Origin: Akkermansiaceae bacterium
Lineage (GTDB): Bacteria; Verrucomicrobiota; Verrucomicrobiia; Verrucomicrobiales; Akkermansiaceae
Assembly: GCA_045106015.1 (NCBI GenBank)
Contig: JBGCEE010000032.1
Span: 1,668-65,667, forward strand
Direction: 5' to 3'
Length of the DNA stretch: 64,000 nt
The notes under the pieces were generated by a model. That model had not been told where the DNA came from and searched no databases. It was given only the letters and a program-made list of their open reading frames with translations. A program made the position numbers and the translations under genes. The number at the start of each line of letters is the position of its first letter. The stretch's first letter is position 1. Positions 9,951 to 60,706 of the stretch are shown here, one piece after another.

Positions 9951-10005
9951 TCGCTGCTTTTCAGACTTCATTCCTTTTGCATCTGTGTTACGAACTAGAT
10001 GCAGA

Positions 10006-10992
10006 ATGATCAGACTTATTATTTCTTCATGGCTTGTCGCCTTTGTATCGCTTGGTTTCAATATTTCGGCTGAAGAGGCTGACTCGAGCCATGGCCTTGT
10101 CGGACTTCGGCCGTTGCCTCGCAGTGCGAAGCTGGATCACGGGCACAATCATGGTGGTTCTTGGGCCGGGACTCCCACCTATGAGGAGCAGAAAGGGAAG
10201 TATCCGTTCGTTGCTCAGAATCTTGATACCGTCAAAGGTTGGCTCGATGGCGATTTCAAAACCAAGCGGGTCTTTTTTGAGCATTATTGGGGTCTGAGTG
10301 AAGGACGTGATGATCTCGATCCCAAAAAGAATCTGCTAATCAAAAGCATACGTAACTGGGAGGCAAAGGGTGGAATCGTAGAACACATCCTCATCTGCCG
10401 AGAATACGACCTTGCGATTCAGCGAGGACACAAAGACGCCAAGCCAGGGCCTTTCAAGGAAGATACGCGTATTCTATTTGCGGAAGACTACGAGAGCATA
10501 CGCACAATGTTCACAGAGGCTCACAAACAAAATCTAACCAAGCACCCGAATTACAAATTGATCCAGATGGTGCAGGAGCCATCTTTTTTTGCCAAAGACA
10601 AGCGGTTCCTTCCGATCATGGAGAAGTGTGATGGGATCGCCTACGAGTGCCACCAGTTCAATCGTCACTGGCCCTTGGAAACGGGTTGGGGGAAACCTGA
10701 GAAGGTCATTGAAGGAGCCAAGTGGACACTGGATCAAGGCAAGGAATACATCTTTTATTACGGCCCGATACGATGGAAGGGGAAAGTCTACTACGAGTTT
10801 TTGGAGCGTGACTGGCTGCAGAAATTCTGGAAGGCAGGTCTCCCGAAACATCATGCGAATATGCATTACTATTTGAATACGTTTCCGCATGGAGACGGTA
10901 GAGGTCGCCCAGTTGGACCTGAGACGGATCCGCACTCCACCTTGGGTTTTACGAAGTGGCTTATTGAGGAAATAAAGACGGGTGCTGAGTAG
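10006..10992 (+). CDS. Hypothetical secreted protein
   Basis: Signal peptide then about 300 aa of soluble, aromatic-rich sequence. No family recognised with confidence. Confidence 0.75.
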   Translation: MIRLIISSWLVAFVSLGFNISAEEADSSHGLVGLRPLPRSAKLDHGHNHGGSWAGTPTYEEQKGKYPFVAQNLDTVKGWLDGDFKTKRVFFEHYWGLSEGRDDLDPKKNLLIKSIRNWEAKGGIVEHILICREYDLAIQRGHKDAKPGPFKEDTRILFAEDYESIRTMFTEAHKQNLTKHPNYKLIQMVQEPSFFAKDKRFLPIMEKCDGIAYECHQFNRHWPLETGWGKPEKVIEGAKWTLDQGKEYIFYYGPIRWKGKVYYEFLERDWLQKFWKAGLPKHHANMHYYLNTFPHGDGRGRPVGPETDPHSTLGFTKWLIEEIKTGAE

Positions 10993-11831: not shown

Positions 11832-11964
11832 TTGGTTCGAAAGTATCGTGACCATGACTCCATCGAGAAATCTTGAGGTATCACTCGAATGGTTGTTGAC
11901 TGTGTTTTGAGATAGCTTGTCGCTGAAGGGAGATCATCTCCTTTGGCTCGGCTCAAAAGAAGAT

Positions 11965-12984
11965 ATGATGAAAAGAATGAACGTAGTGGTCTGCGCATTT
12001 TTGGTGATGCTGACAGTATTAGGTTTCTCCCATGCTGAAGAACTCGTGAAGAAGGAGGATCCTTGGCTTTCTTGGCATCGGCCAGCTGACAACAATGCTT
12101 TCATCACAACAATGGGGAACAACCATGACTCGATCCTCTTTGTTGAACCGGAACTCGAATATCCTTACCACTTGATCATCAGTCACACGCCGGAGGCGGC
12201 GCATCTTTGGAGAGCGAAGAAGTTCTCATGGAAAGGTGCCGACTGGGAGCTTGTTTCCGATCAATATAAGATCGCCAAGCACTATGAATACGACGATGGA
12301 GTAAAGGTCGATGGGACCTATTATATTTATGAAGCGGGAAAGGTGTATACCTTTTCAGGTCCGCTTGAAGAGGCCAGCGGTAAGTGGAAGGTGGCTGGAA
12401 GTTTTCCAAAAAAACAATGCGATGACATCGGGATCTACTACGAAGATGGGTTGTTCCACATGTTTGGTGAGCACGGTAATTTTCCACACGGACCCGATGG
12501 GACCAGCTTGGCCCATTTTACTTCGAAAACCGGGTTGGGTGATTGGAAGCTGGTAAATGCCAAGGCCGTCGATCCGAATCCTGATGGAGGGAACAAGTAC
12601 GGCGTAGGCGATGCTACGATCGAAAAGATCGAGGGGAAATACTACATCTTTTGCGATCGCGAATCGAAGGGTAACCCCTACAAGGTCACCGCATGGCGAT
12701 CGGATGATTTGACCAAACCATTTGAGTATCTGGGAAAGGCGATCACACCGCGCTCAGATGAAACGGATGACTGGGACAATCACCGGATCCAAGATGCCGA
12801 TATTGCCTTTAGCCCCGAACTCGGGCGCTACGTCATGACGTGCAACATGATGGATACCGACGGAAATCCAGGCGGTAACTTCCCAACCATGAAAAAGAAT
12901 CAAACTCGGGTAATTGGAATTTTCTATTCGGATAAGAAACTAGAATTGAAAAACGATTCGCCGCCATTCCTCCAATCTAACTGA
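11965..12984 (+). CDS. Secreted five-bladed beta-propeller glycoside hydrolase-like protein (GH43/GH32-like fold)
   Basis: Signal peptide. Repeated blade motifs DDGVKVDGTYYIY, DDIGIYYEDGLFHMF, GDATIEKIEGKYYIF and QDADIAFSPELGRYVM. Confidence 0.7.
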   Translation: MMKRMNVVVCAFLVMLTVLGFSHAEELVKKEDPWLSWHRPADNNAFITTMGNNHDSILFVEPELEYPYHLIISHTPEAAHLWRAKKFSWKGADWELVSDQYKIAKHYEYDDGVKVDGTYYIYEAGKVYTFSGPLEEASGKWKVAGSFPKKQCDDIGIYYEDGLFHMFGEHGNFPHGPDGTSLAHFTSKTGLGDWKLVNAKAVDPNPDGGNKYGVGDATIEKIEGKYYIFCDRESKGNPYKVTAWRSDDLTKPFEYLGKAITPRSDETDDWDNHRIQDADIAFSPELGRYVMTCNMMDTDGNPGGNFPTMKKNQTRVIGIFYSDKKLELKNDSPPFLQSN

Positions 12985-14964: not shown

Positions 14965-15684
14965 TTATTCGGTTGGAAGGGGCTCTGCCATCTCTCGATA
15001 GCGCCAAGGAGAATAGCCGTTTGCTTTCAACCAGTCGATGCGGATGGAGCATTGTCTGGCTCGCCAAGTGGGGATGGGGCCTGATTCGAACCCCACTACA
15101 TAGTCCTTTCTCCGCTCCACGAACATCAGGGCATGGCCGGGCTTCAGGATGATGTCCGCCATTTTCAGTTCATCCCAGCTGACAGGATCACAGAGAGCGG
15201 GAAGGTCCTTGGTAGAAACATGCTCGGAGAGTTGCCAGCAGCGTGAGATAAACCCCGAGCAGTCAATTCCAACGCTCTCGTTACTAATGGCAGCATTGTC
15301 GTTTCGGACTTTGTAAGTGTTTGCGATATCGCCGGCTTTCTTCCCATTTGCGAGGCCATCGAGAAAACTTTCAGGAGTGTCGAAGCCACCCCATTTGTAT
15401 GCCATTCCTTTCGCGGTCCGGCCAGGTTTCCACCAGCCGCGCTTATCACCGTGTTCTGCCAGAGTGGTATCTGGCGTTTGGACGGGAATCCCATTACTAT
15501 CTTTTCCGTGACGGATGTGACGCTCTTCAGGCATCCATTCCAAGTTTGCGTAAGAAATGGCAATTCTAACGGCCTCTTCGGGAGTGGGCTTGAAGGCACA
15601 AGAGCCAAGGAGGAGAGCGAGTGTGCTTGTGGCAAGGAAGCCGATTATTGAATGCCGCGCAGAGCCTTTTGGTTGTCGATCCAT
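14965..15684 (-). CDS. NlpC/P60-like (papain-fold) lipoprotein, putative peptidoglycan hydrolase
   Basis: Lipobox [23 protein letters not shown] (catalytic Cys) and KPGHALMF (His). Confidence 0.75.
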
Positions 15685-17622: not shown

Positions 17623-20307
17623 TTATTTCAAGGCATCCAGCATCTCGCCGAGTTGTGAGAGCTTCGTTTTCCAGCTTTCAAGTCGCTCTTTTTCTTGAGC
17701 GACGACCTGTGGGGGGGCGCGGTCGACGAATGATGAATTACTGAGCTTACCTTCGGACTTTCTAACCTCGATCTGGATCTTCTCGATCTCTTTGGAAATT
17801 CTTGTTTTTTCGGCTTCGACGTCGACGAGTCCTTCCATTGGCATATAGGCTTCACCTCCCGGTGTTACCGCTGCGGGCGTCCCTTTGGGAGGATTGTAAG
17901 AATCATCTACGACAATCTCAGTAGCTCCGGCTAGAAGAGCTAAGACTTCAAGTTCACTCGATAAAAATTCAGCTGCTCCTTTGAAGATGAAGCGTACGTC
18001 TTTTCGAGAGGCGACGTTGTATTCTGCTTTCAGGTTACGGAGGCGGCCAGCGGATTCATAAACGGCTGTTGCTTGTTGGTCGGCCAGCTCGGTTTCTTTT
18101 TCGGAAAGCTCACCAAGCAATGAGGTTTCGGGGAGTGCCTTGCTCATCAGGAACTCACCCTTGGCCACGTAGTCCATACGTTCTGAGAGCTCTTCAGTTA
18201 CATGAGGCATGTATGGATGCAGGAGCTGTAAATAGCGGCTCATCACCGCATCGAATGTACCCAGAGCGGCAGCCCGCGCCTCTGGTGTGGCGGATTCGCG
18301 AAGGTCTGCTTTAACGGCCTCCAGCCACTTGTCGCAGAAGTCGTTCCAAAGGAATTCGTAGAGACGATGGGCGATTTCTCCGAAACGATATTCGCCGTAG
18401 ATATCTTCCAGATCAAAGGCGAGCCGGTCGAGTTTCGACATGACCTGGATGTGATAGACTGGAAGGGTTTTTACGTCGGGGAGTGGGGCGAACTCATTGC
18501 CATCCATCTGGCGGAAGCGGCAGGCGTTGTAGAGTTTGTTGGCGAAATTTCGGCCTTCTTCGACAGAGCTTTCGTCGAAACGCACGTCAGAGCCAATAGG
18601 TGCGATTCGCATGAGTCCAAAGCGCAGGCCATCGGCCCCGTATTTGTCCATGAGGTCGATGGGGTCTGGGGAGTTTCCGAGTGACTTGCTCATCTTGCGA
18701 CCTTTGAGGTCACGAATGATGGCGGTGAAATAGACATTCTTGAACGGCAGCTCGTCGGCGAAGCGATAGCCAGCCATGATCATACGAGCGACCCAGAAGA
18801 AAATAATATCCGGGCCTGTTACGAGATCCGTAGTAGGATAAAATTTCTTCAGAAATTGGGATTCTTCACCGACATCTGACATGGTTGCGAACGGCCAGAG
18901 CCATGATGAGAACCATGTATCCATCACATCTTCATCTCGCTCCCATTCGCCTTCGGATGGAGCTTCGATTCCAACATAAATATCTCCGCATTCAGCATCT
19001 TTGGTCTCTAAAGACTCAGCGTTTTTCAATGCATCCAGTTTGTCTTTTCGATACCAAACAGGGATTTGATGACCCCACCAGAGCTGACGGCTGATGCACC
19101 AGTCTTGGAGGTTTTCCATCCAATGCGCATAGGTCTTTGACCAGCGTGCAGGGCGGAAGGTGATATCTCCAGAAGCGACGGCTTCTGTGGACTTTTCAAT
19201 TTCTGGGTAACGCAGGAACCACTGCATGGATATTCTTGGTTCGATGGGAACACCGGCGCGTTCCGAGTAACCGACGTTGTTATCGTATTCTTCGACTCCC
19301 ACCAGCAGGCCCATTTCTTCAAGTTTTGCGGCGGCCTTCCGACGTGCAACAAATCGGTCGAGGCCATCGAATTCAGGAAGATCCGGCGTATTCATATTCC
19401 CGTCTGGGTGCAATACGTCGATGATTTCGAGGTCGTGTTTCATACCAACCTCGAAGTCGACTTTGTCGTGGGCAGGAGTGATTTTGAGAGCACCGGTTCC
19501 AAATTCTAGATCCACGGCCTCGTCGCCGATGACAGGGATTTCCGCTTCTGGGAATGGGCGCTTGACCACTTTTCCAATCCACTTCGCGTATTTTGGATGT
19601 TTCGGATGCACCGCCACGGCGGTATCTCCCATGAGTGTTTCAGGCCGGGTGGTGGAAATTTCGATGAATTCGCCGGGACTGTCAGCGAGTTCGTATTTCA
19701 TGGTAAAAAGCTTCGATTTGGAAGGTTTCATGATCACCTCTTCGTCAGAAAGTGCGGTGAGTGAAACCGGACACCAGTTGACCATGCGTTTGCCCCGGTA
19801 GATCAGACCTTCGTTAAAGAGGTCGACGAAGACTTGGCTGACCCATTTGGTGTAGGCCTCATCCATCGTGAAGCGCTCGCGTGACCAGTCGCAGGAGCAG
19901 CCGAGGCGTTTGAGCTGTTTGATGATAATGTCGCCGTGCTTGTCTTTGAAATCCCAGACTAGCTTGAGAAACTCCTCGCGACCAAGATCGCGGCGCGTTT
20001 TCCCTTCCTTCTCACGGAGTTCTCGCTCGACCTTTGCTTGGGTTGCAATTCCTGCGTGATCCGTGCCGGGCAGCCAGAGAACCTCTTTGCCTTTTTGTCT
20101 CGCTCGCCGCGCAAGAATATCCTGAATGGAATTGTTCAGAACGTGCCCGAGATGAAGAATGCCGGTGACATTGGGCGGCGGAATGACGATGGAATAAGCT
20201 TCCTTATCGGATTGCTCGTCTGCGCGGAAACAACCGGCTTCCTGCCATGCGGCATACCATTTCTTTTCCACATCTTGTGGTTCATACGCTTTCGCTAGCT
20301 CAGACAT
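17623..20307 (-). CDS. valS: Valine--tRNA ligase
   Basis: PPPNVTGILHLGH (HIGH-like), DWCISRQLWWGHQIP, KMSKSLGN and a C-terminal coiled coil. Likely start MSELAKAYEP at 20307. Confidence 0.98.
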   Translation of the reverse strand: MSELAKAYEPQDVEKKWYAAWQEAGCFRADEQSDKEAYSIVIPPPNVTGILHLGHVLNNSIQDILARRARQKGKEVLWLPGTDHAGIATQAKVERELREKEGKTRRDLGREEFLKLVWDFKDKHGDIIIKQLKRLGCSCDWSRERFTMDEAYTKWVSQVFVDLFNEGLIYRGKRMVNWCPVSLTALSDEEVIMKPSKSKLFTMKYELADSPGEFIEISTTRPETLMGDTAVAVHPKHPKYAKWIGKVVKRPFPEAEIPVIGDEAVDLEFGTGALKITPAHDKVDFEVGMKHDLEIIDVLHPDGNMNTPDLPEFDGLDRFVARRKAAAKLEEMGLLVGVEEYDNNVGYSERAGVPIEPRISMQWFLRYPEIEKSTEAVASGDITFRPARWSKTYAHWMENLQDWCISRQLWWGHQIPVWYRKDKLDALKNAESLETKDAECGDIYVGIEAPSEGEWERDEDVMDTWFSSWLWPFATMSDVGEESQFLKKFYPTTDLVTGPDIIFFWVARMIMAGYRFADELPFKNVYFTAIIRDLKGRKMSKSLGNSPDPIDLMDKYGADGLRFGLMRIAPIGSDVRFDESSVEEGRNFANKLYNACRFRQMDGNEFAPLPDVKTLPVYHIQVMSKLDRLAFDLEDIYGEYRFGEIAHRLYEFLWNDFCDKWLEAVKADLRESATPEARAAALGTFDAVMSRYLQLLHPYMPHVTEELSERMDYVAKGEFLMSKALPETSLLGELSEKETELADQQATAVYESAGRLRNLKAEYNVASRKDVRFIFKGAAEFLSSELEVLALLAGATEIVVDDSYNPPKGTPAAVTPGGEAYMPMEGLVDVEAEKTRISKEIEKIQIEVRKSEGKLSNSSFVDRAPPQVVAQEKERLESWKTKLSQLGEMLDALK

Positions 20308-20396
20308 CGGGCGCGGACTTTCAAGCAGGCAAAGGGATTTGTCCAGCTTGGACGCAACAAGGAATCTGGGTCCAGCTGCAATACTCTCCATACGTT

Positions 20397-20529
20397 TAGA
20401 CCGGTTTCCAAATGGCCTTGCCGAAATCGAGTGGATTTTTTGGGGTTCGAAGAAATTGGCTACGCGATGTCAGGTACCGTTTCGGGCGGACGAAGCCAAT
20501 ATCGGCAATTCCATCCGCAATACGGTCTA
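20397..20529. mobile_element. MITE-like dispersed repeat, copy 1
   Basis: 20397-20505 matches 59846-59954 at 105/109 nt. Perfect 7-bp terminal inverted repeat TAGACCG (20397) / CGGTCTA (20523-20529). No transposase ORF. Confidence 0.7.
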
Positions 20530-20710
20530 TATCTCAGCAATGGATTAGAGAGAGGTTTGTGCGAATCGGACTTCGCGTGGAACTGAACAATATGCAGGGG
20601 AGAGCGCTGAGCGGGTTGGCTAGGGTTTTGTAACGGAAATCTTTTCGAGGTGTGTTTTGATTCCACTTATGAATTGAATGGTGGGACGAATGCGGCACCT
20701 TTGAGGGGAA

Positions 20711-22216
20711 ATGAAACAAACCTTTCTCGCTCTATTCCTTTCCTCGGTGATTCATGCTGCGGAGAAACCTCGTAATGTTGTGTTCATACTCGTTGATGAT
20801 CTAGGGGTGACCGACATTGATATCGACGGTTCGGACCCGTTTTACGAGACGCCTAATCTTGAGAAGTTCGCAAAGACAGCGGTGAATTTTGCCAATGGCT
20901 ATGCGAGTTGTCCGGTTTGTTCGCCGACTCGATCTGCGATCATGACGGGCCGTAACCCAGCGAGAACGGATAATACGAATTTCTTCGGTGCACCGAATCA
21001 ATTCCTCGACGCCATTCCCGAGGACTACGATCCACTCAAAAATTTCATCAAGCCGGGTAAGAAGGGGCCACGGAGGGCTAAATATCCGTTTTGGCCGGCA
21101 CCGTATTTAGGGAGGCTTCCGGATGGCACGACGACGCTAGCCCAGGCTCTGAAAAGCAATGGCTACGCGACCTTCTTTGCCGGGAAGTGGCATCTTGGCC
21201 AAAAAGGCAACTACCCTCAGGACCACGGCTTCGATGTCAACATAGGTGGGCAGAGCGGCGGAGGGCCTTACGGCGGCAAAAAGTATTTTTCACCATATGG
21301 AAATGATCAAATCGAGGATGGCCCCGACGGAGAGCACCTCACCGAGCGCTTGGGACGGGAGACGGCAAATTTCATCAAGGCGAATAAAGATAAACCCTTT
21401 CTGGCCTATCTCTCTTTCTACTCCGTTCATACGCCCCTGATGGCGCCAGAGAAACTGGTGAAGAAATTTCAGGCGAAACGCAAGAAGCTCGGACTGGAGG
21501 ACGAGTTCTCACCGGAGCCACCGCGCAAGAATCGCACGATTCATTCGCATGCCATTTATGCAGCGATGCTGGAGTCCATGGACGCTGCCTGTGGGCAAGT
21601 ATTTGATACGCTCGAAGCTGAAGGCTTGATCGATAATACCCTTGTGATCTTCACGTCTGACAACGGAGGACTTTCAACATCCGAAGGTTCGCCGACTTCC
21701 AATCTTCCCTATCGCGCTGGTAAAGGCTGGCTTTATGAAGGTGGCATCCGTGTCCCTGTGCTAGTCAGAAATCCTGCTACAGGTCATGGCGGGACGGTCA
21801 CTCAGCAGCCTGTTTATTCGACCGACTATTATCCAACGATTCTCGAAGCAACCGGCCTTTCTCAGTTACCGGAGCAACATATGGACGGGACGTCGTTTCT
21901 TGCCCATTTAAAAGACCCCGCAACAGCAGCGAGCGATCGTCCGCTTTTCTGGCACTACCCGCATTGGGGAAATCAGGGAGGGAGCCCCGGGACGGCGGTC
22001 CGCAAGGGTAAATGGAAATTGATCCGTTGGCACTGGCCAGAGCGCACCGAGCTTTTCGATCTCGAGGCGGATCCAGGCGAGCTCAAAGATCTTTTCGCAG
22101 ATGAGTCGGAAGTTGCATCTGAGCTTGGCAAACTCATCGATTCGTTTCTTGAAAAAACAAATGCCCGCCCACCGCATCGCAATCCGGACTTCAATGGGAA
22201 ATTTCCCAAATGGTAA
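20711..22216 (+). CDS. Sulfatase (Cys-type formylglycine-dependent)
   Basis: Signal peptide, RNVVFILVDDLG, CSPTRSAIMTGR, GKWHLG, TSDNGG, YEGGIRVP. Confidence 0.95.
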   Translation: MKQTFLALFLSSVIHAAEKPRNVVFILVDDLGVTDIDIDGSDPFYETPNLEKFAKTAVNFANGYASCPVCSPTRSAIMTGRNPARTDNTNFFGAPNQFLDAIPEDYDPLKNFIKPGKKGPRRAKYPFWPAPYLGRLPDGTTTLAQALKSNGYATFFAGKWHLGQKGNYPQDHGFDVNIGGQSGGGPYGGKKYFSPYGNDQIEDGPDGEHLTERLGRETANFIKANKDKPFLAYLSFYSVHTPLMAPEKLVKKFQAKRKKLGLEDEFSPEPPRKNRTIHSHAIYAAMLESMDAACGQVFDTLEAEGLIDNTLVIFTSDNGGLSTSEGSPTSNLPYRAGKGWLYEGGIRVPVLVRNPATGHGGTVTQQPVYSTDYYPTILEATGLSQLPEQHMDGTSFLAHLKDPATAASDRPLFWHYPHWGNQGGSPGTAVRKGKWKLIRWHWPERTELFDLEADPGELKDLFADESEVASELGKLIDSFLEKTNARPPHRNPDFNGKFPKW

Positions 22217-27843: not shown

Positions 27844-28764
27844 ATGATCAAACCGATGAAAAAACTTCTCTCAACACTCCTCATTCCCGTCATTTCCTGC
27901 ACCGCGATTGCTCAAGATGCCTTTCAAGCCAGAGCGATTCTCTCCTTTGATGGTGGCGGTAATACGGTTGCTTGGATTCTAGCCGCGACAGACAAAGCCG
28001 TTCGCTACAAGACCAGCGCGAATTCTACGCAATTCGAAGACGCCGGAATCTCGGACTTTTCGAATATCTACCTCATGGAACCTCCGCAATTTTCTGAGGC
28101 CATGGATTTGTATGAAGGAGGTAAGTTCAAAGAAGCGAAGGAGAAGTTCGCGGCATACAAAAAAATCTCCAAACCCATCGCAGCCTTGAAAGGGAATTTC
28201 CATACGCTTTCGGCTTTCTATGAAATGGAGTGCCTGAGGCAGCTTGAGGACTATGAAGCGATTCTCGAGATCCTTAAAAATTTCTTCAAAGAGCCGCTCA
28301 CCCGTGACCATCACCTTCGCCAGCTAGAGCTCTATGTCATGTGGAATGCTGTGAAGTCAGAAGCTTGGGACCAAGTGATTGCCATCGCGGACGAGCGTTA
28401 CGACGAAAACCTTCCTGCCTATCAGTTGGCTCAAGTTGCCTACTGCAAGGGTCTGGCTCTTGAAAAGAAGGGAAAACCACAAGAGGCCCTCGTCGAATAC
28501 GCCGTCGCCATGACTGCAGATGCAGGTGCTTCACGTTTTACGGCCCAGAACGCCGCCTTAAATTCCCTGCGGATTTACAACGCAGATAAAGAAGTCCAGG
28601 CAGCCATGGAAGCATGGGGCACCGAAGATGAAGTCAAAGGCTCGCTTGGCTACAACCGCCTCAGGGAGGCACAGGGAATCGCAAAGGTTTTCCGCAGTTT
28701 CCTGAAAGCTGACAAAGCCCTGGGTGACTACGTGAAATTCCTCGAATACAAGTTCGAGGAATAG
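27844..28764 (+). CDS. Secreted TPR-like protein
   Basis: Signal peptide (AIA/QD). Helical repeats FSEAMDLYEGGKFKEAKEKF and AYCKGLALEKKGKPQEALVEY. Confidence 0.8.
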   Translation: MIKPMKKLLSTLLIPVISCTAIAQDAFQARAILSFDGGGNTVAWILAATDKAVRYKTSANSTQFEDAGISDFSNIYLMEPPQFSEAMDLYEGGKFKEAKEKFAAYKKISKPIAALKGNFHTLSAFYEMECLRQLEDYEAILEILKNFFKEPLTRDHHLRQLELYVMWNAVKSEAWDQVIAIADERYDENLPAYQLAQVAYCKGLALEKKGKPQEALVEYAVAMTADAGASRFTAQNAALNSLRIYNADKEVQAAMEAWGTEDEVKGSLGYNRLREAQGIAKVFRSFLKADKALGDYVKFLEYKFEE

Positions 28765-32303: not shown

Positions 32304-33812
32304 TCACATCAATTGCGCACCTGCTTCGGCAAGTTCCGAACGCTCACCGCGATTCAATGCGACGTGCGCAGTGAATGGTTGTCCTTTCAAGCGGTTACGC
32401 GTGTAGACGAGGCCGTTGCTACGGCTATCGACGTATGGGTTGTCGATCTGTGCTGGGTCACCAACGAGCACCAGCTTGGAATCACGAGACATGCGAGTGA
32501 CAATGGTCTTAGCCTCTTGAGGTGTGAGTTGCTGGGCTTCGTCTAAGATGAAAAAACGATTTGGGATCGAACGCCCGCGGATGTAGCAGAGCGCTTCGAT
32601 TTCCAAGACACCTCGCTCCATCAACGCTTCATAGGGCTTCATGGTTGGAGTGTCGCTCTTGGTTTGTTTCTGTTGCTTACGCTTTGGCCCAAGTGGAATG
32701 TTCGGCCGCATGAGCAGGTCCAAAGCGTCATGGATGGGTTGCAGCCAAGGGCGCATTTTTTCGTCGAGTGACCCTGGGAGGAAACCCATTTGATCTCCCA
32801 TGGCGACAACTGGCCGACTTACTGTTATTCCGTTGTATTTTCGATTGAACATCTCGTGCAGACCCGCTGCAACTGCAACGAGCGTCTTACCCGTTCCGGC
32901 GTGGCCGTAGCAGGTGACTAGTGAGATTTCTGGATTGAGTAAGGCGTCGATCAAACATCTCTGACCGAGATTGAGAGGTTTCAATGTTTGGCCGTCGGGA
33001 ATTTTCAAAACCTCGGGGATATTGAGCCGAACAAATTTTTTATCGAATCGAAAGCGAGCCGGAATAGTTTGTTTCTCACCGCAACAAAGTAGGACGTATT
33101 CATTTACGGATACACCAACGGATCGTTCTTCATCGAGCCCGATCTCACCTTTGCTCGCAAAGCGATGAAGCTCGGATGCATCCACTTCGACTCGGCGGAC
33201 TTCGTAGTTCGAAACCTCGCGCGCATCGACCTTGTCATTCAGGTAGTCTTGACACTCGATGTGTACGGCGCGGGCCTTCAGTTGGAGATTGATGTCCTTG
33301 GTTACCAATGCAATTTGGCCATCAGGGTTGTGTTGCTTCAGAAGCAAACACGCGGCAAGAATCCGGTGATCCACTCTTTCTCGATCAGGAAAGACTCGGT
33401 AAAATTGGTTGAGTTGGTCGGAGTTGTCGGGACAGGTCGAGGGATCGTAGATGACCAGACGAATCGTTCCACCACCTTCGGTAGACGCACCTTTTGTTAC
33501 TACGCTTGCCGTAGAAAAGATATCAGTTAGGCGCCGATGCACGCGCCGTGCATTTGCTCCGCGCTCCGACTGCTCTGTTTTAAATTTGTCCAACTCGGCC
33601 AATACATCGACGAGAATGCATATATGGTTCTCCTTGAAACGTTCAAGACACGCGGGGTCGTGGAGGAGGACATTGGTATCGAGAACGTAGTTCTTGCCCT
33701 TTTTTGATGGTGCTTTGAGTCCGAACTCTTCGATTGCTTTGGAATTTGAGCGGTTAGCCTTTTTTTTGGCTTTGCCGATGGGAGCGGAATCATCAAAGAG
33801 GGCAGGCTGCAT
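32304..33812 (-). CDS. PIN-PhoH (PhoH2 / YlaK-like) ATPase
   Basis: PIN motif YVLDTNVLLHDP, TKDINLQLKA, Walker A GHAGTGKT, YIRGRSI, ILDEAQQLT, VGDPAQID. Confidence 0.93.
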   Translation of the reverse strand: MQPALFDDSAPIGKAKKKANRSNSKAIEEFGLKAPSKKGKNYVLDTNVLLHDPACLERFKENHICILVDVLAELDKFKTEQSERGANARRVHRRLTDIFSTASVVTKGASTEGGGTIRLVIYDPSTCPDNSDQLNQFYRVFPDRERVDHRILAACLLLKQHNPDGQIALVTKDINLQLKARAVHIECQDYLNDKVDAREVSNYEVRRVEVDASELHRFASKGEIGLDEERSVGVSVNEYVLLCCGEKQTIPARFRFDKKFVRLNIPEVLKIPDGQTLKPLNLGQRCLIDALLNPEISLVTCYGHAGTGKTLVAVAAGLHEMFNRKYNGITVSRPVVAMGDQMGFLPGSLDEKMRPWLQPIHDALDLLMRPNIPLGPKRKQQKQTKSDTPTMKPYEALMERGVLEIEALCYIRGRSIPNRFFILDEAQQLTPQEAKTIVTRMSRDSKLVLVGDPAQIDNPYVDSRSNGLVYTRNRLKGQPFTAHVALNRGERSELAEAGAQLM

Positions 33813-48860: not shown

Positions 48861-49265
48861 GTGAATCTCCAAGATATACATCTTCTACTTCGTCTGGCTG
48901 GTCTTGTGCTATGCGGATTGGTTCTCGCGAATTTTGTTGCGGCGAAGCGCTTTCAGTATGCTGAAAATCTTCGGTCAACGGACGTGATCATTCGCCAGAT
49001 TTTTCATGTCCATAGCGCGTATATCATCGCTATCATTGGTGGGTTGGCAGTTCTGTGTTTGGGATCGCCAGAGCTCTTAACCGAAGGAAAATTCAGCCGT
49101 GTGTTCTGCATCTTCTTCGCCCTGTTCTGGAGCAGCCGAGTGCTCGTTCAGTTGAAGTATTACGACAGGGATCTACGCCGTTCGAACCGCTTCTGGGATG
49201 TCTTTTTCCTCTGCGTATTTGGTTTCCTTGGTGTCGTCTTCACCCTAACTGCACTGCTACCATGA
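48861..49265 (+). CDS. Hypothetical 4-TM membrane protein (paralog A)
   Basis: GTG start, 134 aa. IRQIFHVHSAYI and FWSSRVLVQLKYYD motifs are shared with the next gene. Confidence 0.8.
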   Translation: MNLQDIHLLLRLAGLVLCGLVLANFVAAKRFQYAENLRSTDVIIRQIFHVHSAYIIAIIGGLAVLCLGSPELLTEGKFSRVFCIFFALFWSSRVLVQLKYYDRDLRRSNRFWDVFFLCVFGFLGVVFTLTALLP

Positions 49266-49696
49266 AAAATTTGTTAGAAATTGGAACGCTGATCGGAGGC
49301 TGGTCGTTGGTCATCCTATGTATCGGTAGTTTTTGGATTCCTCAGAAACTGGGATGGAAGGAGAAGCTGGCTGGGTTGACTCCGCTGATGCGAGAGCTTT
49401 GGTGGACCTACTCAATCTACGTCTTGAGCAGTCATGTATTCTTTTCGGTCTTACTTCTGTTTCATCGTGATTGGCTAATGGGTGGGAGCGGATCGGCCAT
49501 TGCGATGAACGTTTTTATGCTGCTTTGGTGGTCGGTGAGACTCTGGTTGCAGTTCTTTGGATTCGATTTCTCTGAGGTCGAAAAAAATTTGAGCAACCGG
49601 CTAGCGAAGGGCCTACTGACGCTACTTTTTATTGGGCTCGTGGTTCTGAATGGCGGGCTACTTTGTTGGAATGTTGGTTGGTTCGAATTTCTTTGA
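49262..49696 (+). CDS. Hypothetical 4-TM membrane protein (paralog B)
   Basis: ATGA overlap with paralog A. LMRELWWTYSIYV and WWSVRLWLQFFGFD motifs. Confidence 0.8.
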   Translation: MKNLLEIGTLIGGWSLVILCIGSFWIPQKLGWKEKLAGLTPLMRELWWTYSIYVLSSHVFFSVLLLFHRDWLMGGSGSAIAMNVFMLLWWSVRLWLQFFGFDFSEVEKNLSNRLAKGLLTLLFIGLVVLNGGLLCWNVGWFEFL

Positions 49697-50606: not shown

Positions 50607-50621
50607 GAACGCTTGTGCGTC

Positions 50622-50649
50622 GGGAAATTCCGTGCTCGAAGAATTTCCC
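50622..50649. promoter_or_regulatory. Perfect 9-bp inverted repeat upstream of the metal ATPase
   Basis: GGGAAATTC-N10-GAATTTCCC. Imperfect pairing extends outward to CTTGT/ACAAG (50612-50664). Confidence 0.45.
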
Positions 50650-50672
50650 ACGTGGCGCTACAAGGGTCGTGT

Positions 50673-53036
50673 ATGAAGGGGGAAGAGAGATCGTCCGATT
50701 TGCTTGGAGATGTGATTCATGACTTAGCAGATCAGCAGGGTGTCGTGAAAGTTCGCGCGGACCCCGAGCATGGGCGTCTCGAAATTGATTTTGACCCAAA
50801 AGAGATGAGCGAAGGCGAACTGCGAAAAATCGCCGGTGAGGATGCTAGCGAGTTGGCGGAGGAATTGAGGAAGTTAAGTTTTCGATTGGAGAATTCGGGA
50901 TGCGAAGCAGGTGCGCTTCGATTGGAGAAAAAGGTTAGCAATGTCCATGGTGTTCGGCATGCGACGGCAACTTACATCGGTAAGGTCCTGTGCCTGACTT
51001 TTGATCAGTCCATGGCGGCGGAGGACGAAGTGGTTGCTGGTATTCAGCAAGCTGGGGCTGAAGTAAAACCACTGGAATTTGGTAAAGGGGGTAAGACTTC
51101 GTTTGCCGACAAACTAAAAGCGGGTGAGCTTAACGAGGAAATCTCGTGTGGTCTTGGATTTGCTTTTTTGATTGCTGCGTTTGTGTCCGAGAAAATTGCT
51201 GGCATGGGTGTTTTGGCCATTGGATTTTATGTGGGTGCGTATGTATTCGCAGGCCAGGAGGGAGTCAGATCTGCGATTGCGTCTCTTAAGGAGAAGGTCT
51301 TGGACGTGGATGTGTTGATGGTACTTGCAGCCATCGGTGCGGCCATCGTCGGTGCTCCATTTGAAGGTGCACTGCTTTTATTCCTTTTCAGTTTTTCGAA
51401 CGTTCTACAACGCTATGCGATGGAGCGGACACATCGGGCAATCGAGTCTTTGCTCACGCTTCGGCCGGATGAGGCGTTGGTGAAGCGTGGGGGTAGGACG
51501 GTCCTTGTTCCCGTGGAGGACCTAGAGATCGGGGAAACGGTTGTGGTAAAGCCGGGAGAGCAGATTCCGGTGGATGGGGAGCTTTCCGAGGGTAGCACGC
51601 ATGTGAATGAATCCTCGCTGACTGGTGAGTCGATGCCAGTGGCGAAACACAAGGGTAGCGAACTCTTTGCAGGGACGATGAATCAGAGCGGAGGTATTGA
51701 ACTTAGGGTAACGAAGCGCTCCGAGGACTCGGCACTGGCGCGCATGGTTAAGCTTGTCGCCGAGGCTCAAGCTGAGAAGTCGAAAACCCAACGTTTTTTG
51801 GAAACTGCCGAGCAGTATTATGCGATGGGAGTCATTCTTTTTACGATAGGTGTATTCTTTTTACCTTGGTTGATTTGGGAAGAATCATTTTCCCAATCGT
51901 TTTACCGAGCGATGACAGTGATGGTAGTGGCTTCTCCCTGTGCGCTGATCATCAGTACTCCTGCAACGGTTTTGTCAGCGATTGGTGGGGCAGCAAGAAG
52001 GGGGATTCTTGTCAAAGGAGGTTCGCATTTGGAGCAGGCAGCAACGATTGATATAGTCGCGGTGGATAAGACAGGAACCCTCACAGAAGGAAAGCCTTCA
52101 CTGACGGAAATCGTGACCTTGCAAGGGGCTTCAATAATGTCGCCATCGCTGGGTGAAGATGCTCGAAGTCTTCTCCGTATGGCTGCGGGATTGGAAACAA
52201 GATCAGAACATCCGCTTGCGCACGCGATCGCAGATGCTGCTTCTTCCTTGGGTTTAGATATTCCAGAGGCATCCGAGTTTCAGTCGATAACTGGCAAAGG
52301 AGCCGAGGCGACTCTGGAATCCGAACGCTATGTCATCGGTAGTGAAAGATGGTTTCGCGATTCGCTGGCAGAAAATGTTGAAGAGCTTTCGAGCTCCGCC
52401 CATGAATTTCAGAAGAAAGGGCGAACTTGCGTTTGGCTTGGGGTGCGAAAGGGGAACAAGCTTTCGGTAAAAGCGGTATTCGCTATGGCGGATACGGTTC
52501 GCCAAGAAGCGAAGACTCTCGCGAAACAGCTTCATGTTTTGGGGATCAAAAAATTCGTCATGCTCACGGGGGATCAGAAGGTGGTCGCTGATACGATTGC
52601 TGCTGAGGTTGGGATTGATGAAGTTCATGCGGAGATGCTTCCCGAGAATAAACTGGAGGTGATTCGCGAACTGAAGAAAGAAGGAAAAGTCCTGATGATT
52701 GGGGATGGCGTGAACGACGCGCCGGCCTTGGCGACATCGGACCTGAGTATGGCGATGGGTGCGGCGGGAACGGATGTTGCGATGGAAACCGCAGATGTCG
52801 TGCTGATGGGGGATCGTTTGGAATCGATTCCACTGCTTTTGAATCATGCGAGGAGAGCCAGACGTGTTCTTATACAGAATCTCGCTTTCGCGACAGGCGT
52901 GATCATTGTTCTTGTGATCGGTGCGCTTGGATTTGCTTTGCCATTGCCCGTGGGTGTCGTGGGACATGAAGGCAGCACGGTGTTAGTTTGTCTCAATGGC
53001 TTGCGCCTTCTTTTGATCGGCAGGTCTGCAGTGTAG
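50673..53036 (+). CDS. Heavy-metal P-type ATPase, P1B-4 signature
   Basis: SPC (VASPCALII), TGES, DKTGT, SEHP, GDGVND and HEGST in the last TM. Confidence 0.93.
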   Translation: MKGEERSSDLLGDVIHDLADQQGVVKVRADPEHGRLEIDFDPKEMSEGELRKIAGEDASELAEELRKLSFRLENSGCEAGALRLEKKVSNVHGVRHATATYIGKVLCLTFDQSMAAEDEVVAGIQQAGAEVKPLEFGKGGKTSFADKLKAGELNEEISCGLGFAFLIAAFVSEKIAGMGVLAIGFYVGAYVFAGQEGVRSAIASLKEKVLDVDVLMVLAAIGAAIVGAPFEGALLLFLFSFSNVLQRYAMERTHRAIESLLTLRPDEALVKRGGRTVLVPVEDLEIGETVVVKPGEQIPVDGELSEGSTHVNESSLTGESMPVAKHKGSELFAGTMNQSGGIELRVTKRSEDSALARMVKLVAEAQAEKSKTQRFLETAEQYYAMGVILFTIGVFFLPWLIWEESFSQSFYRAMTVMVVASPCALIISTPATVLSAIGGAARRGILVKGGSHLEQAATIDIVAVDKTGTLTEGKPSLTEIVTLQGASIMSPSLGEDARSLLRMAAGLETRSEHPLAHAIADAASSLGLDIPEASEFQSITGKGAEATLESERYVIGSERWFRDSLAENVEELSSSAHEFQKKGRTCVWLGVRKGNKLSVKAVFAMADTVRQEAKTLAKQLHVLGIKKFVMLTGDQKVVADTIAAEVGIDEVHAEMLPENKLEVIRELKKEGKVLMIGDGVNDAPALATSDLSMAMGAAGTDVAMETADVVLMGDRLESIPLLLNHARRARRVLIQNLAFATGVIIVLVIGALGFALPLPVGVVGHEGSTVLVCLNGLRLLLIGRSAV

Positions 53037-53037
53037 A

Positions 53038-53352
53038 TCAGCGGCGTTGCAGTTCGCTTGAAGGGAAGAGCAGCCTCGCCATGCCGTTGAAAAGAGTCAT
53101 GAGCACCTTGTAGCAAACGAATAGGACTGCAGCGACCATGCCGATGGCGACAAAGAGAATAAGAAGCACAAAGCCAAGGATGAACCAGAGTGGCCACCAG
53201 CGGGAATCGAGCTTTCTCATCTTTCCTTGTAAGGTGCCCCAGCTCTGCCAGCGACTGCGTTGACGCTTGGATTTCTGAGCGGGATTTGGCTCCACAGCGA
53301 CCCCGTCGATCTCGACGACTTCGGCTTCGATGGTGGGTTCCTCACGGCTCAT
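53038..53352 (-). CDS. Hypothetical membrane protein
   Basis: MSREEPTIEAEVVEIDG...WWPLWFILG with a C-terminal hydrophobic hairpin. A TATACT -10-like hexamer lies 8 nt upstream (53361-53366). Confidence 0.7.
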   Translation of the reverse strand: MSREEPTIEAEVVEIDGVAVEPNPAQKSKRQRSRWQSWGTLQGKMRKLDSRWWPLWFILGFVLLILFVAIGMVAAVLFVCYKVLMTLFNGMARLLFPSSELQRR

Positions 53353-53406
53353 ACGGCAACAGTATACCGTGTGGGCGGAACTACGCACCTATAGAAAGCA
53401 AAAATC

Positions 53407-53476
53407 AAAAAAAGTGCGGCCCGACCGATCATCCCCAAGGAAAACCCAATAACCAGAGGAGTCTCAGTCGGACCGC
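53407..53476 (-). terminator. Intrinsic terminator with a 35-nt loop
   Basis: Minus strand GCGGTCCGACTGA pairs with TCGGTCGGGCCGC (13 bp, two G-U pairs that work only on this strand), followed by AC and seven T. Confidence 0.75.
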
Positions 53477-53520
53477 CTATAGATGAGGACAGCACGGAAC
53501 ATGCCAAAGTCGTTTTCGTT
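53407..53520 (-). ncRNA. Candidate small RNA (about 115 nt)
   Basis: Bounded by an extended -10 (TGCTACTAT) and a 13-bp stem plus U7 terminator. No long ORF. The 5' end is inferred. Confidence 0.5.
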
Positions 53521-53525
53521 TCGAA

Positions 53526-53534
53526 ATAGTAGCA
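53526..53534 (-). promoter_or_regulatory. Extended -10 promoter element
   Basis: Minus strand TG-C-TACTAT. No consensus -35 at 17-nt spacing. Confidence 0.4.
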
Positions 53535-53586
53535 AAGGCTTTCAATTCTCTATTGGACGATTCGACGAGGAAGCGCAGTCGAAATC

Positions 53587-54504: not shown

Positions 54505-54577
54505 GTGTAAGCTCAAATTTCCTGAGAACGTGAGGGAAACTAGATGAGTTTCCGATCTTGTGCAACTTTTCATGAAC

Positions 54578-56935: not shown

Positions 56936-56973
56936 AGATTCAAAAGTAAGTTTTACCTCTCCCTGATGGAGCT

Positions 56974-57669: not shown

Positions 57670-57675
57670 CGTAGA

Positions 57676-59351: not shown

Positions 59352-59750
59352 CTATCCCAATTCCTCTTCGATGAATTCGAGGACTAGGTCGACGAGTTCG
59401 TCCATGCCGGGCGGGAGTTCTTCTTCGATGGTGGTGAGGTAGTCGGCTTCGGTTTCGCTGTAGTCGCTGCGGTCTTGGGGGCGGGTCTGGCACCAGCGGC
59501 TGGCGTTGAGGGGATCAACGATGGTTGCGGCACCGACGAGATCGAAGGAATTGATCACGCGTTGATGGTCCAGTCCGCTTTGCCAGAACTCATGGAGGCA
59601 GTCACCACTTTCCAGAATTGGCACGGTTTCATAGACATCCATGAGGGCGCGTTCCTCGCGGTTGAGGGGACGGTCGGCGGCTTCGCTCTCGAGGCGATCC
59701 ACGAGAACTTCGACTTCGTCGGGCCATTCAATCGGTTCTTGGGCAAACAT
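59352..59750 (-). CDS. Acidic hypothetical protein (DUF4375-like)
   Basis: 132 aa, Glu/Asp-rich, with GDCLHEFW and SFDLVGA. Family call tentative. Confidence 0.7.
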   Translation of the reverse strand: MFAQEPIEWPDEVEVLVDRLESEAADRPLNREERALMDVYETVPILESGDCLHEFWQSGLDHQRVINSFDLVGAATIVDPLNASRWCQTRPQDRSDYSETEADYLTTIEEELPPGMDELVDLVLEFIEEELG

Positions 59751-59845: not shown

Positions 59846-59988
59846 TAGACCGGTTTCCAAATGGCCTTGCCGAAATCGAGTGGATTTTTTGGGGTTTGAA
59901 GAAATTGGCTACGCGATGTCAGGCAGCGTTTCGGGCGGACGAAGCCAAGATCGGAGTTGTTCGTCATTCGTGGATGTTCAACGGTCTG
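59846..59988. mobile_element. MITE-like dispersed repeat, copy 2
   Basis: 59846-59954 matches copy 1 at 105/109 nt in the same orientation. Left end TAGACCG, right end CGGTCTG (59982-59988). Confidence 0.7.
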
Positions 59989-59992
59989 ACAA

Positions 59993-60706
59993 CTATTGAC
60001 CAAGTTTTTCGATACGTTCATGAAGTTGTTTGGCTATGTCATTCCAGCCGCTTCGGTTGTCCGGACAATTGCCGAAGCTGACCGGTTCTCCAATCTTGAT
60101 GCGGAGTTTTGTCGGCTTGATGAAATGGCCGCCGGGTGGCCAGGCGTGGGCACAGCCTTCAAGTTTGCAGGGGACGACGGGGATTTTGCTTTCTGCAACG
60201 AGACGGCCAATTCCGCTTTTGAAGGGTTGCATTTTACCAGAGCGACTACGAGTTCCCTCGGGAAAAATGATGAAAACGGCGTTCTCCTTAATTAAGCGTT
60301 CACGCATTCGTTCGAGATCGTGAGCACCGGTCCCTCGGCGGCGGATGGCCAGTGCGTTGAGAAACCAAGCTGCAAATGCGGCAGTGGGGAGATTCTCGAA
60401 AAACGTGTCACTCGCAGCCACTGGGGAGATTTGGTCACGCCATTTCGGAGGAAGCATCGAGGCGAGCAGAGGCGCATCAAGGTGACTGGTATGGTTCGCA
60501 ACGAGGATGAACGGAGGTGAATTCGGGAGGTTTTCGCGGCCGCTGACATCGAGTCTGTTCCAGATTCGAAATATCAAGCGGAGGCTTCCCCACCAGAACA
60601 GGCGGCAGACGCTGGCGGCCAACCCATGTTCACGCTGAAGACTGCGGTGTCGTTCGATACCTTGGAGGTCTTTGTCGCGAGCCGGTTCGAATTCCCATCC
60701 GTTCAT
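59993..60706 (-). CDS. Lysophospholipid (1-acyl-sn-glycerol-3-phosphate) acyltransferase family
   Basis: ANHTSHLD (HxxxxD), FPEGTRS, FKSGIG. Confidence 0.93.
   Translation of the reverse strand: MNGWEFEPARDKDLQGIERHRSLQREHGLAASVCRLFWWGSLRLIFRIWNRLDVSGRENLPNSPPFILVANHTSHLDAPLLASMLPPKWRDQISPVAASDTFFENLPTAAFAAWFLNALAIRRRGTGAHDLERMRERLIKENAVFIIFPEGTRSRSGKMQPFKSGIGRLVAESKIPVVPCKLEGCAHAWPPGGHFIKPTKLRIKIGEPVSFGNCPDNRSGWNDIAKQLHERIEKLGQ

What the first reader, a model, noticed from the sequence alone, without database searches (positions are those of the whole stretch)
20397..20529. MITE-like element present twice, 39 kb apart, with terminal inverted repeats
Seen: 109 nt (20397-20505 vs 59846-59954) match at 105 positions. 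The ORF track shows DRFPNGLAEIEWIFWG at both loci. Both copies begin TAGACCG. After a divergent stretch both show ACGGTCT, giving a 133-bp element with perfect TAGACCG/CGGTCTA ends here and a 143-bp element in copy 2. An internal stem ATTGGCT...AGCCAAT is present (6 bp in copy 2). No transposase is in the window. Inference: a non-autonomous miniature element or a genome-wide structured repeat RNA that I cannot match to a named family.
Basis: partly seen in the sequence, partly recalled or inferred. Interest (0 to 1): 0.72.

Follow-up and report, generated by a model that had tools for sequence, protein, structure and literature searches.

The report
New small mobile repeat (MITE) family
The two matching stretches are copies of a roughly 133-base mobile repeat without a gene of its own (a MITE) that is present many times in an uncultured verrucomicrobial bacterium; this is a real but ordinary kind of genomic parasite, in a family that has no name yet.

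Summary
20397-20505 and 59846-59954 match at 105 of 109 positions, and both copies lie between genes. Contigs of the source metagenome show the repeat is far from two-copy. Flanking depth is about 8, while depth on the repeat reaches 1,000-1,160. Copies with unrelated flanks also occur in sediment and other metagenomes. Eight further right ends read from seven runs carry the same end, ...GGCAATTCCATCCGCAAAACGGTCTA; six of them reach the terminus, and in five unrelated DNA is seen to follow. So TAGACCG/CGGTCTA are the true termini of the 133-bp form (copy 1). Its ends form a 31-bp imperfect inverted repeat with 23 of 31 matches; the best of 200,000 random 133-mers from the window had 18. Every end carries TA, as in many bacterial MITEs and IS630/Tc1-mariner-type insertions, but I found no empty site, so a TA duplication is unproven. 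Copy 2 is a variant. It shares the left 109 nt, has a different multi-copy right arm ending at about 59980, and its ACGGTCT lies just outside that arm. The window has no transposase, no Rfam family matches, and no partner insertion sequence could be retrieved. The host is an uncultured Haloferula/Luteolibacter-like Akkermansiaceae. Verdict: a new member of a known kind, of modest interest.

The parts
20397..20529 (+). Copy 1: complete 133-bp 'type A' element, TA-GACCGG ... CGGTC-TA
   Evidence: Depth jumps from about 8-14 to 380-1150 at 20394-20402 and falls back to 8 after 20529. Loose ends at 20397 and 20529 run into unrelated sequence in X1, X3, X4, X5, X10 and X14. A 253-nt contig of a sediment metagenome (X5) carries the whole 133 bp with 5 differences.
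20397..20427 (+). Left terminal inverted repeat (31 nt) of copy 1
   Evidence: 23/31 matches to the reverse complement of 20499-20529. The null from 200,000 window 133-mers has mean 7.7, sd 2.4 and max 18. No variant above 3 % of depth was listed at 20397-20442 in X1.
20499..20529 (+). Right terminal inverted repeat of copy 1 (type A right arm)
   Evidence: The same arm was read as loose ends from other copies in X1 (2 variants), X2, X3, X5, X10 and X14. The consensus TTTCGGCAATTCCATCCGCAAAACGGTCTA gives 24/30 against the left end.
59846..59954 (+). Copy 2: left arm and core shared with copy 1 (105/109)
   Evidence: Depth is 8.4 before 59840 and up to 1159 inside.
59955..59980 (+). Copy 2: alternative 'type B' right arm (GAGTTGTTCGTCATTCGTGGATGTTCA), itself multi-copy
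   Evidence: Depth is 180-360 against 8.3 in the flank. The same arm was read as loose ends after 20506 in X1 and X2. Other copies continue differently after about 59975-59980.
59981..59988 (+). ACGGTCTG: terminus-like 7-mer directly after the type B arm, unique to this copy
   Evidence: Depth is 16 in the bin 59980-59989 and 8.3 from 59990 on. There are only 3 ACGGTCT in the 64 kb. That this is a remnant of the right terminus is an inference.
17623..20307 (-). valS (valine-tRNA ligase). The start at 20307 lies 89 nt from the left end of copy 1.
   Evidence: The 894-aa product matches valS of relatives over 100 % of its length. DNA homology with relatives runs on to about 20349-20363 and stops before the element.
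59352..59750 (-). Conserved 132-aa protein of unknown function. Its start lies 95 nt from the left end of copy 2.
   Evidence: 974 homologues, Haloferula/Luteolibacter. No Pfam family.
59993..60706 (-). PlsC-like acyltransferase. Its stop codon lies 4 nt from the right end of copy 2.
   Evidence: PF01553.

Best explanation
This is a family of miniature inverted-repeat transposable elements (MITEs). These are short DNA transposon derivatives that cannot move on their own. Their roughly 30-bp terminal inverted repeats would be bound by a transposase encoded elsewhere in the genome or community, which would cut the element out and insert it between genes. Copy 1 (20397-20529) is the canonical 133-bp form. 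Copy 2 (59846-59988) is a mosaic variant with the same left arm and core but a different right arm. Shown here: multi-copy status, dispersed copies with unrelated flanks, sharp conserved termini, a significant inverted repeat, no coding capacity, and TA at every end. Inferred: movement by a DDE transposase, most plausibly of IS630/Tc1-mariner type because of the TA ends. Also inferred: insertion at TA with duplication, and origin of the variants by internal deletion or recombination of longer elements.
For: (1) 105/109 identity between two intergenic sites 39 kb apart. (2) Contig word depth is about 8 in both flanks but up to 1153-1159 on the element in X1. In X3 it is about 3 against 168. Other junction contigs (1706, 900 and 680 nt) have depth 6.8-7.0, the same as this genome. 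(3) Left boundary: loose ends at 20397/59846 have low agreement (0.48-0.57), which means many different flanks. (4) Right boundary...CAATTCCATCCGCAAAACGGTCTA is followed by GAAGCT, ATTTCACC, AGATCAGG, GCCGGAAT and AGCCGC in different copies and runs. (5) The inverted repeat has 23/31 matches against a null maximum of 18 in 200,000. The whole 133 nt folds as one long hairpin, z -2.1 (+) and -3.3 (-), while the 109-nt core alone does not, z about 0. (6) Copies at about 96 % identity occur in sediment metagenomes that lack the window's flanks. (7) The six-frame peptides have no homologue among 5.8 billion proteins, and no Rfam family matches. (8) The trait list for bacterial MITEs in Delihas 2008 (PMC2229807) includes size under 200 bp, TIRs, 5'-TA-3' termini, a long stem-loop and frequent open reading frames. 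All of these fit.
Against: No empty site was found, so neither mobility nor the TA duplication is demonstrated. The one other assembly of the same species (L010, 99.3 % identical) has copy 2 in place. No transposase with matching ends was found, and none is in the window. The element-to-flank depth ratio differs between runs (about 138, 50 and 5-6). Much of the depth may therefore come from other community members, and the copy number in this genome is uncertain. Exact 20-21-mers of the element hit nothing real in 185,579 species genomes or in the JGI metagenome contigs. The element is not A+T-rich (50 % G+C), unlike most described bacterial MITEs. Copy 2's right arm matches the left end at only 15/31.
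Confidence: 0.75

Rival explanations
1. A genome-wide structured RNA or regulatory repeat. It would be transcribed with, or upstream of, neighbouring genes, and kept for a role in mRNA stability, termination or promoter activity rather than for mobility.
For: Both window copies have the same orientation relative to the next gene on the minus strand. They lie at similar distances from its start codon (89 and 95 nt). Copy 2 lies 4 nt after a stop codon and is probably co-transcribed. The full copy 1 folds better than shuffles.
Against: There is no Rfam hit at gathering or E<=10. The 109-nt core shared by both copies folds no better than shuffles, with z between -0.4 and +0.9. The good fold of copy 1 comes from the terminal inverted repeat, which works equally on both strands, as expected of DNA symmetry. 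No promoter-like or terminator-like sites were found. Two copies cannot establish an orientation bias. No RNA runs were available. This role would not exclude a MITE origin, as with the Correia elements.
Confidence: 0.1
2. The repeats are end fragments or internal-deletion remnants of a longer element, such as an insertion sequence or another transposon whose left 45-135 nt they share. On this view they are not a self-standing miniature family, and mobility may rest on a mechanism other than a DDE transposase, for example a hairpin-recognising one.
For: Depth falls stepwise along the element: about 1100 for the first 45 nt, 700-800 in the middle and 180-290 in either right arm. Some contigs leave the element after 47 nt (AAAACGGACTTAATCAGG...). 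Others leave after the type B arm into a conserved continuation (TCCACTCGTTCCTCACGCCTTGATCTTGGC) that is identical in X2, X3 and X4, with a 75 %-similar variant. Both versions complete a 6-bp hairpin, GTGGAT/ATCCAC. On the other strand both read like a gene end: ATC AAG GCG TGA and ATT AAG ACG TGA.
Against: Only 30 nt of these continuations could be read, so a gene end is a guess from four codons. The 133-bp form with both ends is itself repeated in several runs, which is what defines a MITE. The continuations may simply be flanks of one conserved locus.
Confidence: 0.12
3. A simple segmental duplication within this genome, with no family behind it.
For: Only two copies are visible in the 64 kb window.
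Against: The depth excess is 50-140 fold. Dozens of contig pieces carry different flanks. Copies exist in unrelated metagenomes.
Confidence: 0.01

Closest known systems
Correia / NEMIS elements of Neisseria (bacterial MITEs, about 105-155 bp, about 24-26-bp TIRs, TA at the ends)
   Same: The size class, long imperfect terminal inverted repeats, TA at both termini, high copy number, intergenic location next to starts and stops of genes, length variants from internal differences, and a whole-element hairpin (traits as listed in PMC2229807).
   Different: The phylum is different (Verrucomicrobiota). I did not test for sequence similarity, and I recall none. No IHF site or outward promoter was detected here. 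G+C is 50 %, not A+T-rich.
RUP of Streptococcus pneumoniae (107-bp MITE thought to be moved by IS630-Spn1)
   Same: A TA-ended small element with TIRs and about 100 copies. The proposed mechanism is the same: trans-mobilisation by an IS630/Tc1-mariner-type transposase that inserts at TA (PMC2229807; ISY100 biochemistry, abstract of PMC2170065 as listed).
   Different: For RUP a parent IS with matching ends is known. Here none was found, so the assignment to IS630 rests on the TA ends alone.
ERIC/IRU and RPE (enterobacterial and rickettsial repeats with open reading frames)
   Same: The element is open in several reading frames. All three + frames are free of stops after the terminal TAG in copy 1. 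It therefore produces spurious ORFs when gene-finding (69, 73 and 146 aa).
   Different: No copy was seen inside a gene here, and no protein in the 5.8-billion collection contains the peptide.
REP/BIME palindromes mobilised by RAYT transposases
   Same: They are high-copy intergenic repeats.
   Different: REPs are 20-40-bp palindromes with a GTAG or CGTC head (abstract of PMC3733652, as listed). This is a 133-bp unit with 31-bp inverted ends starting TAGACCG, and the base before TAG varies (T, G, C).

Membership tests
Bacterial MITE (non-autonomous DNA transposon) | Small size (about 100-300 bp) and no transposase gene inside | tested here: met
   The elements are 133 and 143 bp. The six-frame peptides have no homologue.
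Bacterial MITE (non-autonomous DNA transposon) | Terminal inverted repeats | tested here: met
   Copy 1 has 23/31 matches (null maximum 18 of 31 in 200,000). The consensus of other copies gives 24/30. Copy 2 has only 15/31.
Bacterial MITE (non-autonomous DNA transposon) | Many dispersed copies with unrelated flanking DNA | tested here: met
   Depth is 50-140x the flanks. Loose ends give different flanks at 20397 and 20529 in X1, X3, X4, X5, X10 and X14.
Bacterial MITE (non-autonomous DNA transposon) | Target-site duplication flanking each copy | tested here: inconclusive
   TA lies at both ends of every copy read (copy 2: TA/TG). No longer direct repeat exists in the three copies with both flanks known (copy 1, copy 2, X5). 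TA may be a duplication or part of the repeat.
Bacterial MITE (non-autonomous DNA transposon) | Presence/absence polymorphism (empty sites) showing mobility | tested here: inconclusive
   No joints skip the element in X1-X5. The same-species contig L010 is filled. Relatives are not syntenic at either site.
Bacterial MITE (non-autonomous DNA transposon) | A full-length element whose transposase gene is bounded by the same inverted repeats | not testable with these tools
   There is none in the window. Other contigs of the source metagenome cannot be fetched, and both large DNA scans returned only chance hits.
IS630 / Tc1-mariner-derived MITE | Insertion into TA with TA duplication | tested here: inconclusive
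   The TA ends are consistent with it, but no empty site is available.
IS630 / Tc1-mariner-derived MITE | Ends similar to those of an IS630-family member in the host | not testable with these tools
   No IS sequence library or host genome was available.
REP/BIME | A 20-40-bp imperfect palindrome with a conserved GTAG/CGTC head | tested here: not met
   The unit is 133 bp. The head is TAGACCG, preceded by T, G or C in different copies.
Any curated RNA family (Rfam 15) | A covariance-model hit at or near the gathering score | tested here: not met
   There were 0 hits in the window at gathering score. At E<=10 the only hit was a chance snoRNA match outside the element.

The most novel reading that the evidence does not exclude
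The family may not be an ordinary DDE-transposase MITE. It may be a modular element in which one invariant 45-nt left arm is combined with at least three different right-hand modules. One of those modules ends in a conserved hairpin next to what reads like a gene end. That pattern would fit the non-coding end of a so far undescribed mobile element of uncultured Akkermansiaceae, for example one that recognises hairpins or uses an RNA made from this end. The 133-bp form would then be its stripped-down derivative.
Probability: 0.08. Interest if true: 0.6.

Novelty: new member of a known kind. Interest (0 to 1): 0.3.

Why it matters
I found no paper describing a MITE family in Verrucomicrobia in one literature search. 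Exact 20-21-mers of this element hit nothing real in 185,579 species genomes or in the JGI metagenome contigs. It is therefore a lineage-restricted repeat of an uncultured marine or host-associated Akkermansiaceae. In practice it breaks short-read assemblies: Logan's contig of the same locus ends inside copy 2. It also creates spurious ORFs of 69-146 aa. It sits within about 90 nt of gene starts, where it could alter expression. It could serve as a strain-typing marker. Beyond that it adds one more family to a well-known class.

Tried and rejected
Several searches led nowhere.

- **Large DNA scans.** I scanned genome contigs with GGCCTTGCCGAAATCGAGTGG and metagenome contigs with CCGAAATCGAGTGGATTTTT. 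A viral-contig scan found nothing. Distant blastn against plasmids and phages found nothing.
- **Protein route to other copies.** I concatenated the six-frame peptides of the element and searched 5.8 billion proteins, hoping to catch spurious ORFs called over other copies. There was no hit.
- **Empty sites.** I looked up contigs for valS homologues (87-89 % identity) and homologues of the 132-aa protein (83-98 %). The relatives are not syntenic at either insertion site, and about 88 kb of their DNA holds no copy.
- **Contig walking.** Two exact look-ups of genes at the window's ends, meant to walk beyond the contig, failed, probably because the called start codons differ.
- **Transcription.** No RNA runs were listed.
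- **Regulatory signals.** Promoter and terminator consensus scans found nothing in either copy.
- **Covariation.** A covariance model or covariation test was not attempted. Only three full sequences could be obtained (copy 1, copy 2 and its orthologue in L010).

Readings I rejected: a segmental duplication (refuted by depth), REP/BIME (wrong size and head), and a riboswitch or leader shared by valS and the 132-aa gene (no Rfam hit, no fold signal in the shared core, and copies in unrelated contexts).

Full report
**Observation.** Window 20397-20505 and 59846-59954 are identical at 105 of 109 positions. It is the only long repeat in the 64 kb; the other 'families' that the repeat finder reported are 25-36-nt matches at 63-85 % identity. 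Sensitive blastn finds no third copy.

Homology starts abruptly at TAGACCGG in both copies and stops after ...GCCAA(T/G)ATCGG. ACGGTCT follows 16 nt later in copy 1 (20522) and 26 nt later in copy 2 (59981). There are only three ACGGTCT in the window. The peptide DRFPNGLAEIEWIFWG is the translation of one open frame of the repeat.

**Setting.** The window comes from an uncultured member of the Verrucomicrobiota. Its valS product is at most 89 % identical to anything in the protein collection, and the named relatives are Luteolibacter and Haloferula. The 132-aa protein next to copy 2 gives the same picture. The gene content is typical of that group: several sulfatases, PSD/PSCyt proteins, a galactonate pathway and cbb3-oxidase accessory genes.

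Both copies lie between genes.
- Copy 1 lies between valS (minus strand) and a sulfatase gene (plus strand, 20711). The real valS start is at 20307, because the 894-aa product aligns end to end with relatives.
- Copy 2 lies 4 nt after the stop of a PlsC-like acyltransferase and 95 nt before the start of the conserved 132-aa gene.
- On the minus strand both copies point the same way. They lie 89 and 95 nt from the next start codon. With two cases this carries no statistical weight.

**Copy number.** The window derives from a 'plant metagenome' run (X1). I laid Logan's contigs of that run on the two loci.
- Flank depth is 7-8.4. Depth on the element reaches 985-1159.
- In a sister sample (X3) the flanks are about 3 and the element reaches 168.
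- In X2 the flanks are about 3 and the element reaches 16.5.

The ratio is therefore not constant (about 138, 50 and 5-6). Part of the depth must come from other carriers in the community, or copy number differs between strains. I do not claim a copy number for this genome.

Three points favour many copies in this genome. Other contigs that run from the element into unique DNA (1706, 900 and 680 nt) have depth 6.8-7.0, the same as this genome. Two copies in 64 kb would scale to more than 100 in a genome of several Mb. Logan's own contig of the locus breaks inside copy 2 (L014).

The element also occurs at low depth, without the window's flanks, in sediment metagenomes (X4, X5) and in two runs labelled 'organism A' (X10, X14).

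**Termini.** Loose ends to the left of 20397/59846 have low agreement (0.48-0.57). That means many different flanks, so the left boundary is exact.

To the right, two kinds of arm exist.

*Type A* is the arm of copy 1. I read it from eight further right ends.
- X1: CAATTCCATCCGCAAAACGGTCTA|GAAGCT. Here | marks the end of the element.
- X1: TTTCCGCAATTCCATCCGCAAAACGATCTA.
- X2: TTTCGGCAATTCCATCCGCA.
- X3: TTTCGGCAATTCCATTCGAAAAAACGGTCT.
- X5: ...CAAAACGGTCTA|ATTTCACC.
- X10: ...ACGGTCTA|AGATCAGG.
- X14: TTTCGGCAATTCCAGCCGCAAAACGGTCTA.
- X4: a contig piece laid on 20496-20529 with one difference, followed by GCCGGAATGATG.
- Two more X1 contigs continue AGCCGC... after 20529.

A 253-nt X5 contig holds the complete 133 bp with five differences.

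The left 31 nt and the reverse complement of the right 31 nt of copy 1 match at 23 positions. In 200,000 random 133-mers from the window the mean was 7.7, the sd 2.4 and the maximum 18. The consensus right end gives 24/30.

The 133-nt unit folds into one long hairpin on either strand (z -2.1 and -3.3). The shared 109-nt core alone folds no better than shuffles. The fold signal is therefore the DNA symmetry of the ends, not a strand-specific RNA structure.

No variant above 3 % of depth was listed for 20397-20442 in X1. The interior is polymorphic: 20448 C/T at about 60 %, 20475 T>C at 97 %, 20477 C>G at 37 %, 20499 A>T at 10 %, plus indels at 20501/20503.

**TA.** Every end read carries TA: N|TA-GACCGG...CGGTC-TA|N. 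Copy 2 has TA/TG. In the three copies with both flanks known (copy 1, copy 2, X5) nothing beyond TA is repeated. This fits a 2-bp TA duplication as made by IS630/Tc1-mariner transposases. It fits equally well a TA that belongs to the inverted repeat. Without an empty site I cannot decide between them.

**Copy 2 and the mosaic.** Copy 2 shares the left arm and core. It then carries GAGTTGTTCGTCATTCGTGGATGTTCA, the *type B* arm. This arm is itself multi-copy, with depth 180-360, falling to 16 in the bin 59980-59989 and to 8.3 beyond. Type B was also read after position 20506 from other copies.

After about 59975-59980 the copies diverge.
- Copy 2 has ACGGTCTG and then the stop codon of plsC.
- Others continue TCCACTCGTTCCTCACGCCTTGATCTTGGC, identical in X2, X3 and X4.
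- One variant continues ATTGATCCACTCATTTCTCACGTCTTAATC.
- Others continue ACATTTTG or ACCTTTTGCATTGC....

The first two continuations each complete a 6-bp hairpin (GTGGAT/ATCCAC) with different loops. On the other strand they read ...ATC AAG GCG TGA and ...ATT AAG ACG TGA, which looks like the end of a gene. With four codons this is only a lead.

Depth also steps down along the element, from about 1100 over the first 45 nt to 700-800 and then to 180-290. One X3 contig leaves the element after 47 nt. Several element types therefore share the left end.

My reading is an inference. The family is a set of deletion or recombination derivatives of one or more longer elements. On this reading, copy 2's ACGGTCT, placed exactly at the end of the shared arm, is the remnant of the right terminus. 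Chance placement there has a probability of roughly 1e-3, given three occurrences in 64 kb.

**What it is not.** No Rfam family matches at gathering score or at E<=10. No sigma-70-like promoter or intrinsic terminator pattern lies in either copy. The six-frame peptides have no homologue among 5.8 billion proteins, so no protein is encoded. No ORF of at least 200 aa in the window is a transposase. It is not a REP/BIME, because the size and head are wrong.

**Distribution.** Exact 20-21-mers from the best-conserved part hit only chance 21-23-nt matches in the GTDB species genomes and the JGI metagenome contigs. They hit nothing in viral contigs, plasmids or phages. About 88 kb from relatives hold no copy. 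At the window's density about 2.7 copies would be expected there, so this is weak evidence of absence.

One contig from an unrelated 'gut metagenome' assembly is 99.3 % identical to the window over 1,280 nt. It has copy 2 in place with 2 of 143 differences. The insertion is therefore shared by the only two assemblies of this species that could be compared.

**Comparison with known systems.** The trait list for bacterial MITEs (Delihas 2008, PMC2229807) is:
- size under 200 bp;
- no protein;
- terminal inverted repeats;
- 5'-TA-3' termini;
- target duplication;
- long stem-loop transcripts;
- mostly intergenic location;
- often open reading frames.

All are met here except that the duplication is unproven and the element is not A+T-rich (50 % G+C). 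In architecture the closest described families are the Correia/NEMIS elements, with about 24-bp TIRs, TA ends and length variants. RUP is also close: 107 bp, TA ends, and linked to IS630-Spn1.

Membership in the general class 'MITE' is well supported. Membership in the IS630-derived subgroup rests on TA alone and remains open. One literature search found no described MITE family in Verrucomicrobia.

**Verdict.** This is a new, lineage-restricted family of a well-known kind of element. The mechanism (trans-mobilisation by a transposase that binds the 31-bp ends, probably with insertion at TA) is inferred, not shown. Interest is modest. The mosaic right arms and the unidentified parent element are the only parts that could hold a surprise.

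Noticed in passing
window 20397-20529 and 59846-59988: The element is free of stop codons in most frames. In copy 1 all three + frames are open after the terminal TAG. It therefore generates spurious ORFs of 69, 73 and 146 aa (20339-20548, 20412-20633, 59641-60081). It also generates a 97-aa minus-strand ORF (59728-60021). Open frames are a known trait of several bacterial MITEs.
   Followed up: partly
window 20308-20391: The listed 922-aa valS ORF starts 28 codons too early. Relatives and full-length alignment place the start at 20307 (894 aa). The upstream in-frame ATG at 20391 lies 6 nt from the element.
   Followed up: yes
window 20711-22216 vs L006 9444-10001: In the closest relative (valS 89 %) the Dabb gene lies directly next to valS, with a 191-nt spacer. 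In the window a sulfatase gene and the element lie between them. This is a gene gain or rearrangement next to copy 1.
   Followed up: partly
L010 (ENA assembly of run DRR049542, labelled gut metagenome): A 1,280-nt contig is 99.3 % identical to window 59285-60564. The same species therefore turns up in a sample of a quite different label from the 'plant metagenome' source.
   Followed up: partly
L014 (Logan contig of the source run, 2,498 nt): The short-read contig of this locus ends 29 nt into copy 2. The repeat fragments assemblies of this organism, which may explain why no genome of the lineage shows the element in public genome sets.
   Followed up: partly
window 19900-20200 (inside valS): Short depth bumps (for example 20048-20084: 34 in X1 and 48 in X3) come from contigs of other organisms that match conserved valS motifs at 85-95 % identity. 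They are not repeats.
   Followed up: no
window 50613-59234: A cluster typical of cbb3 oxidase maturation and metal handling: two P-type ATPases (50613-53036 +, 54578-56935 -), a DsbD_2 membrane protein, a FixG/CcoG-like ferredoxin (57813-59234 -) and a PocR/AraC regulator.
   Followed up: no
window 32304-33812 (-): A PIN_4 plus PhoH-like ATPase fusion protein (502 aa).
   Followed up: no
window 9985-10992, 11917-12984, 14965-15684, 27844-28764, 49055-49696: Five ORFs of 213-355 aa have no significant Pfam family (one had only a weak match at E 0.005, below the family cut-off). I did not examine them further. None resembles a transposase by Pfam.
   Followed up: no
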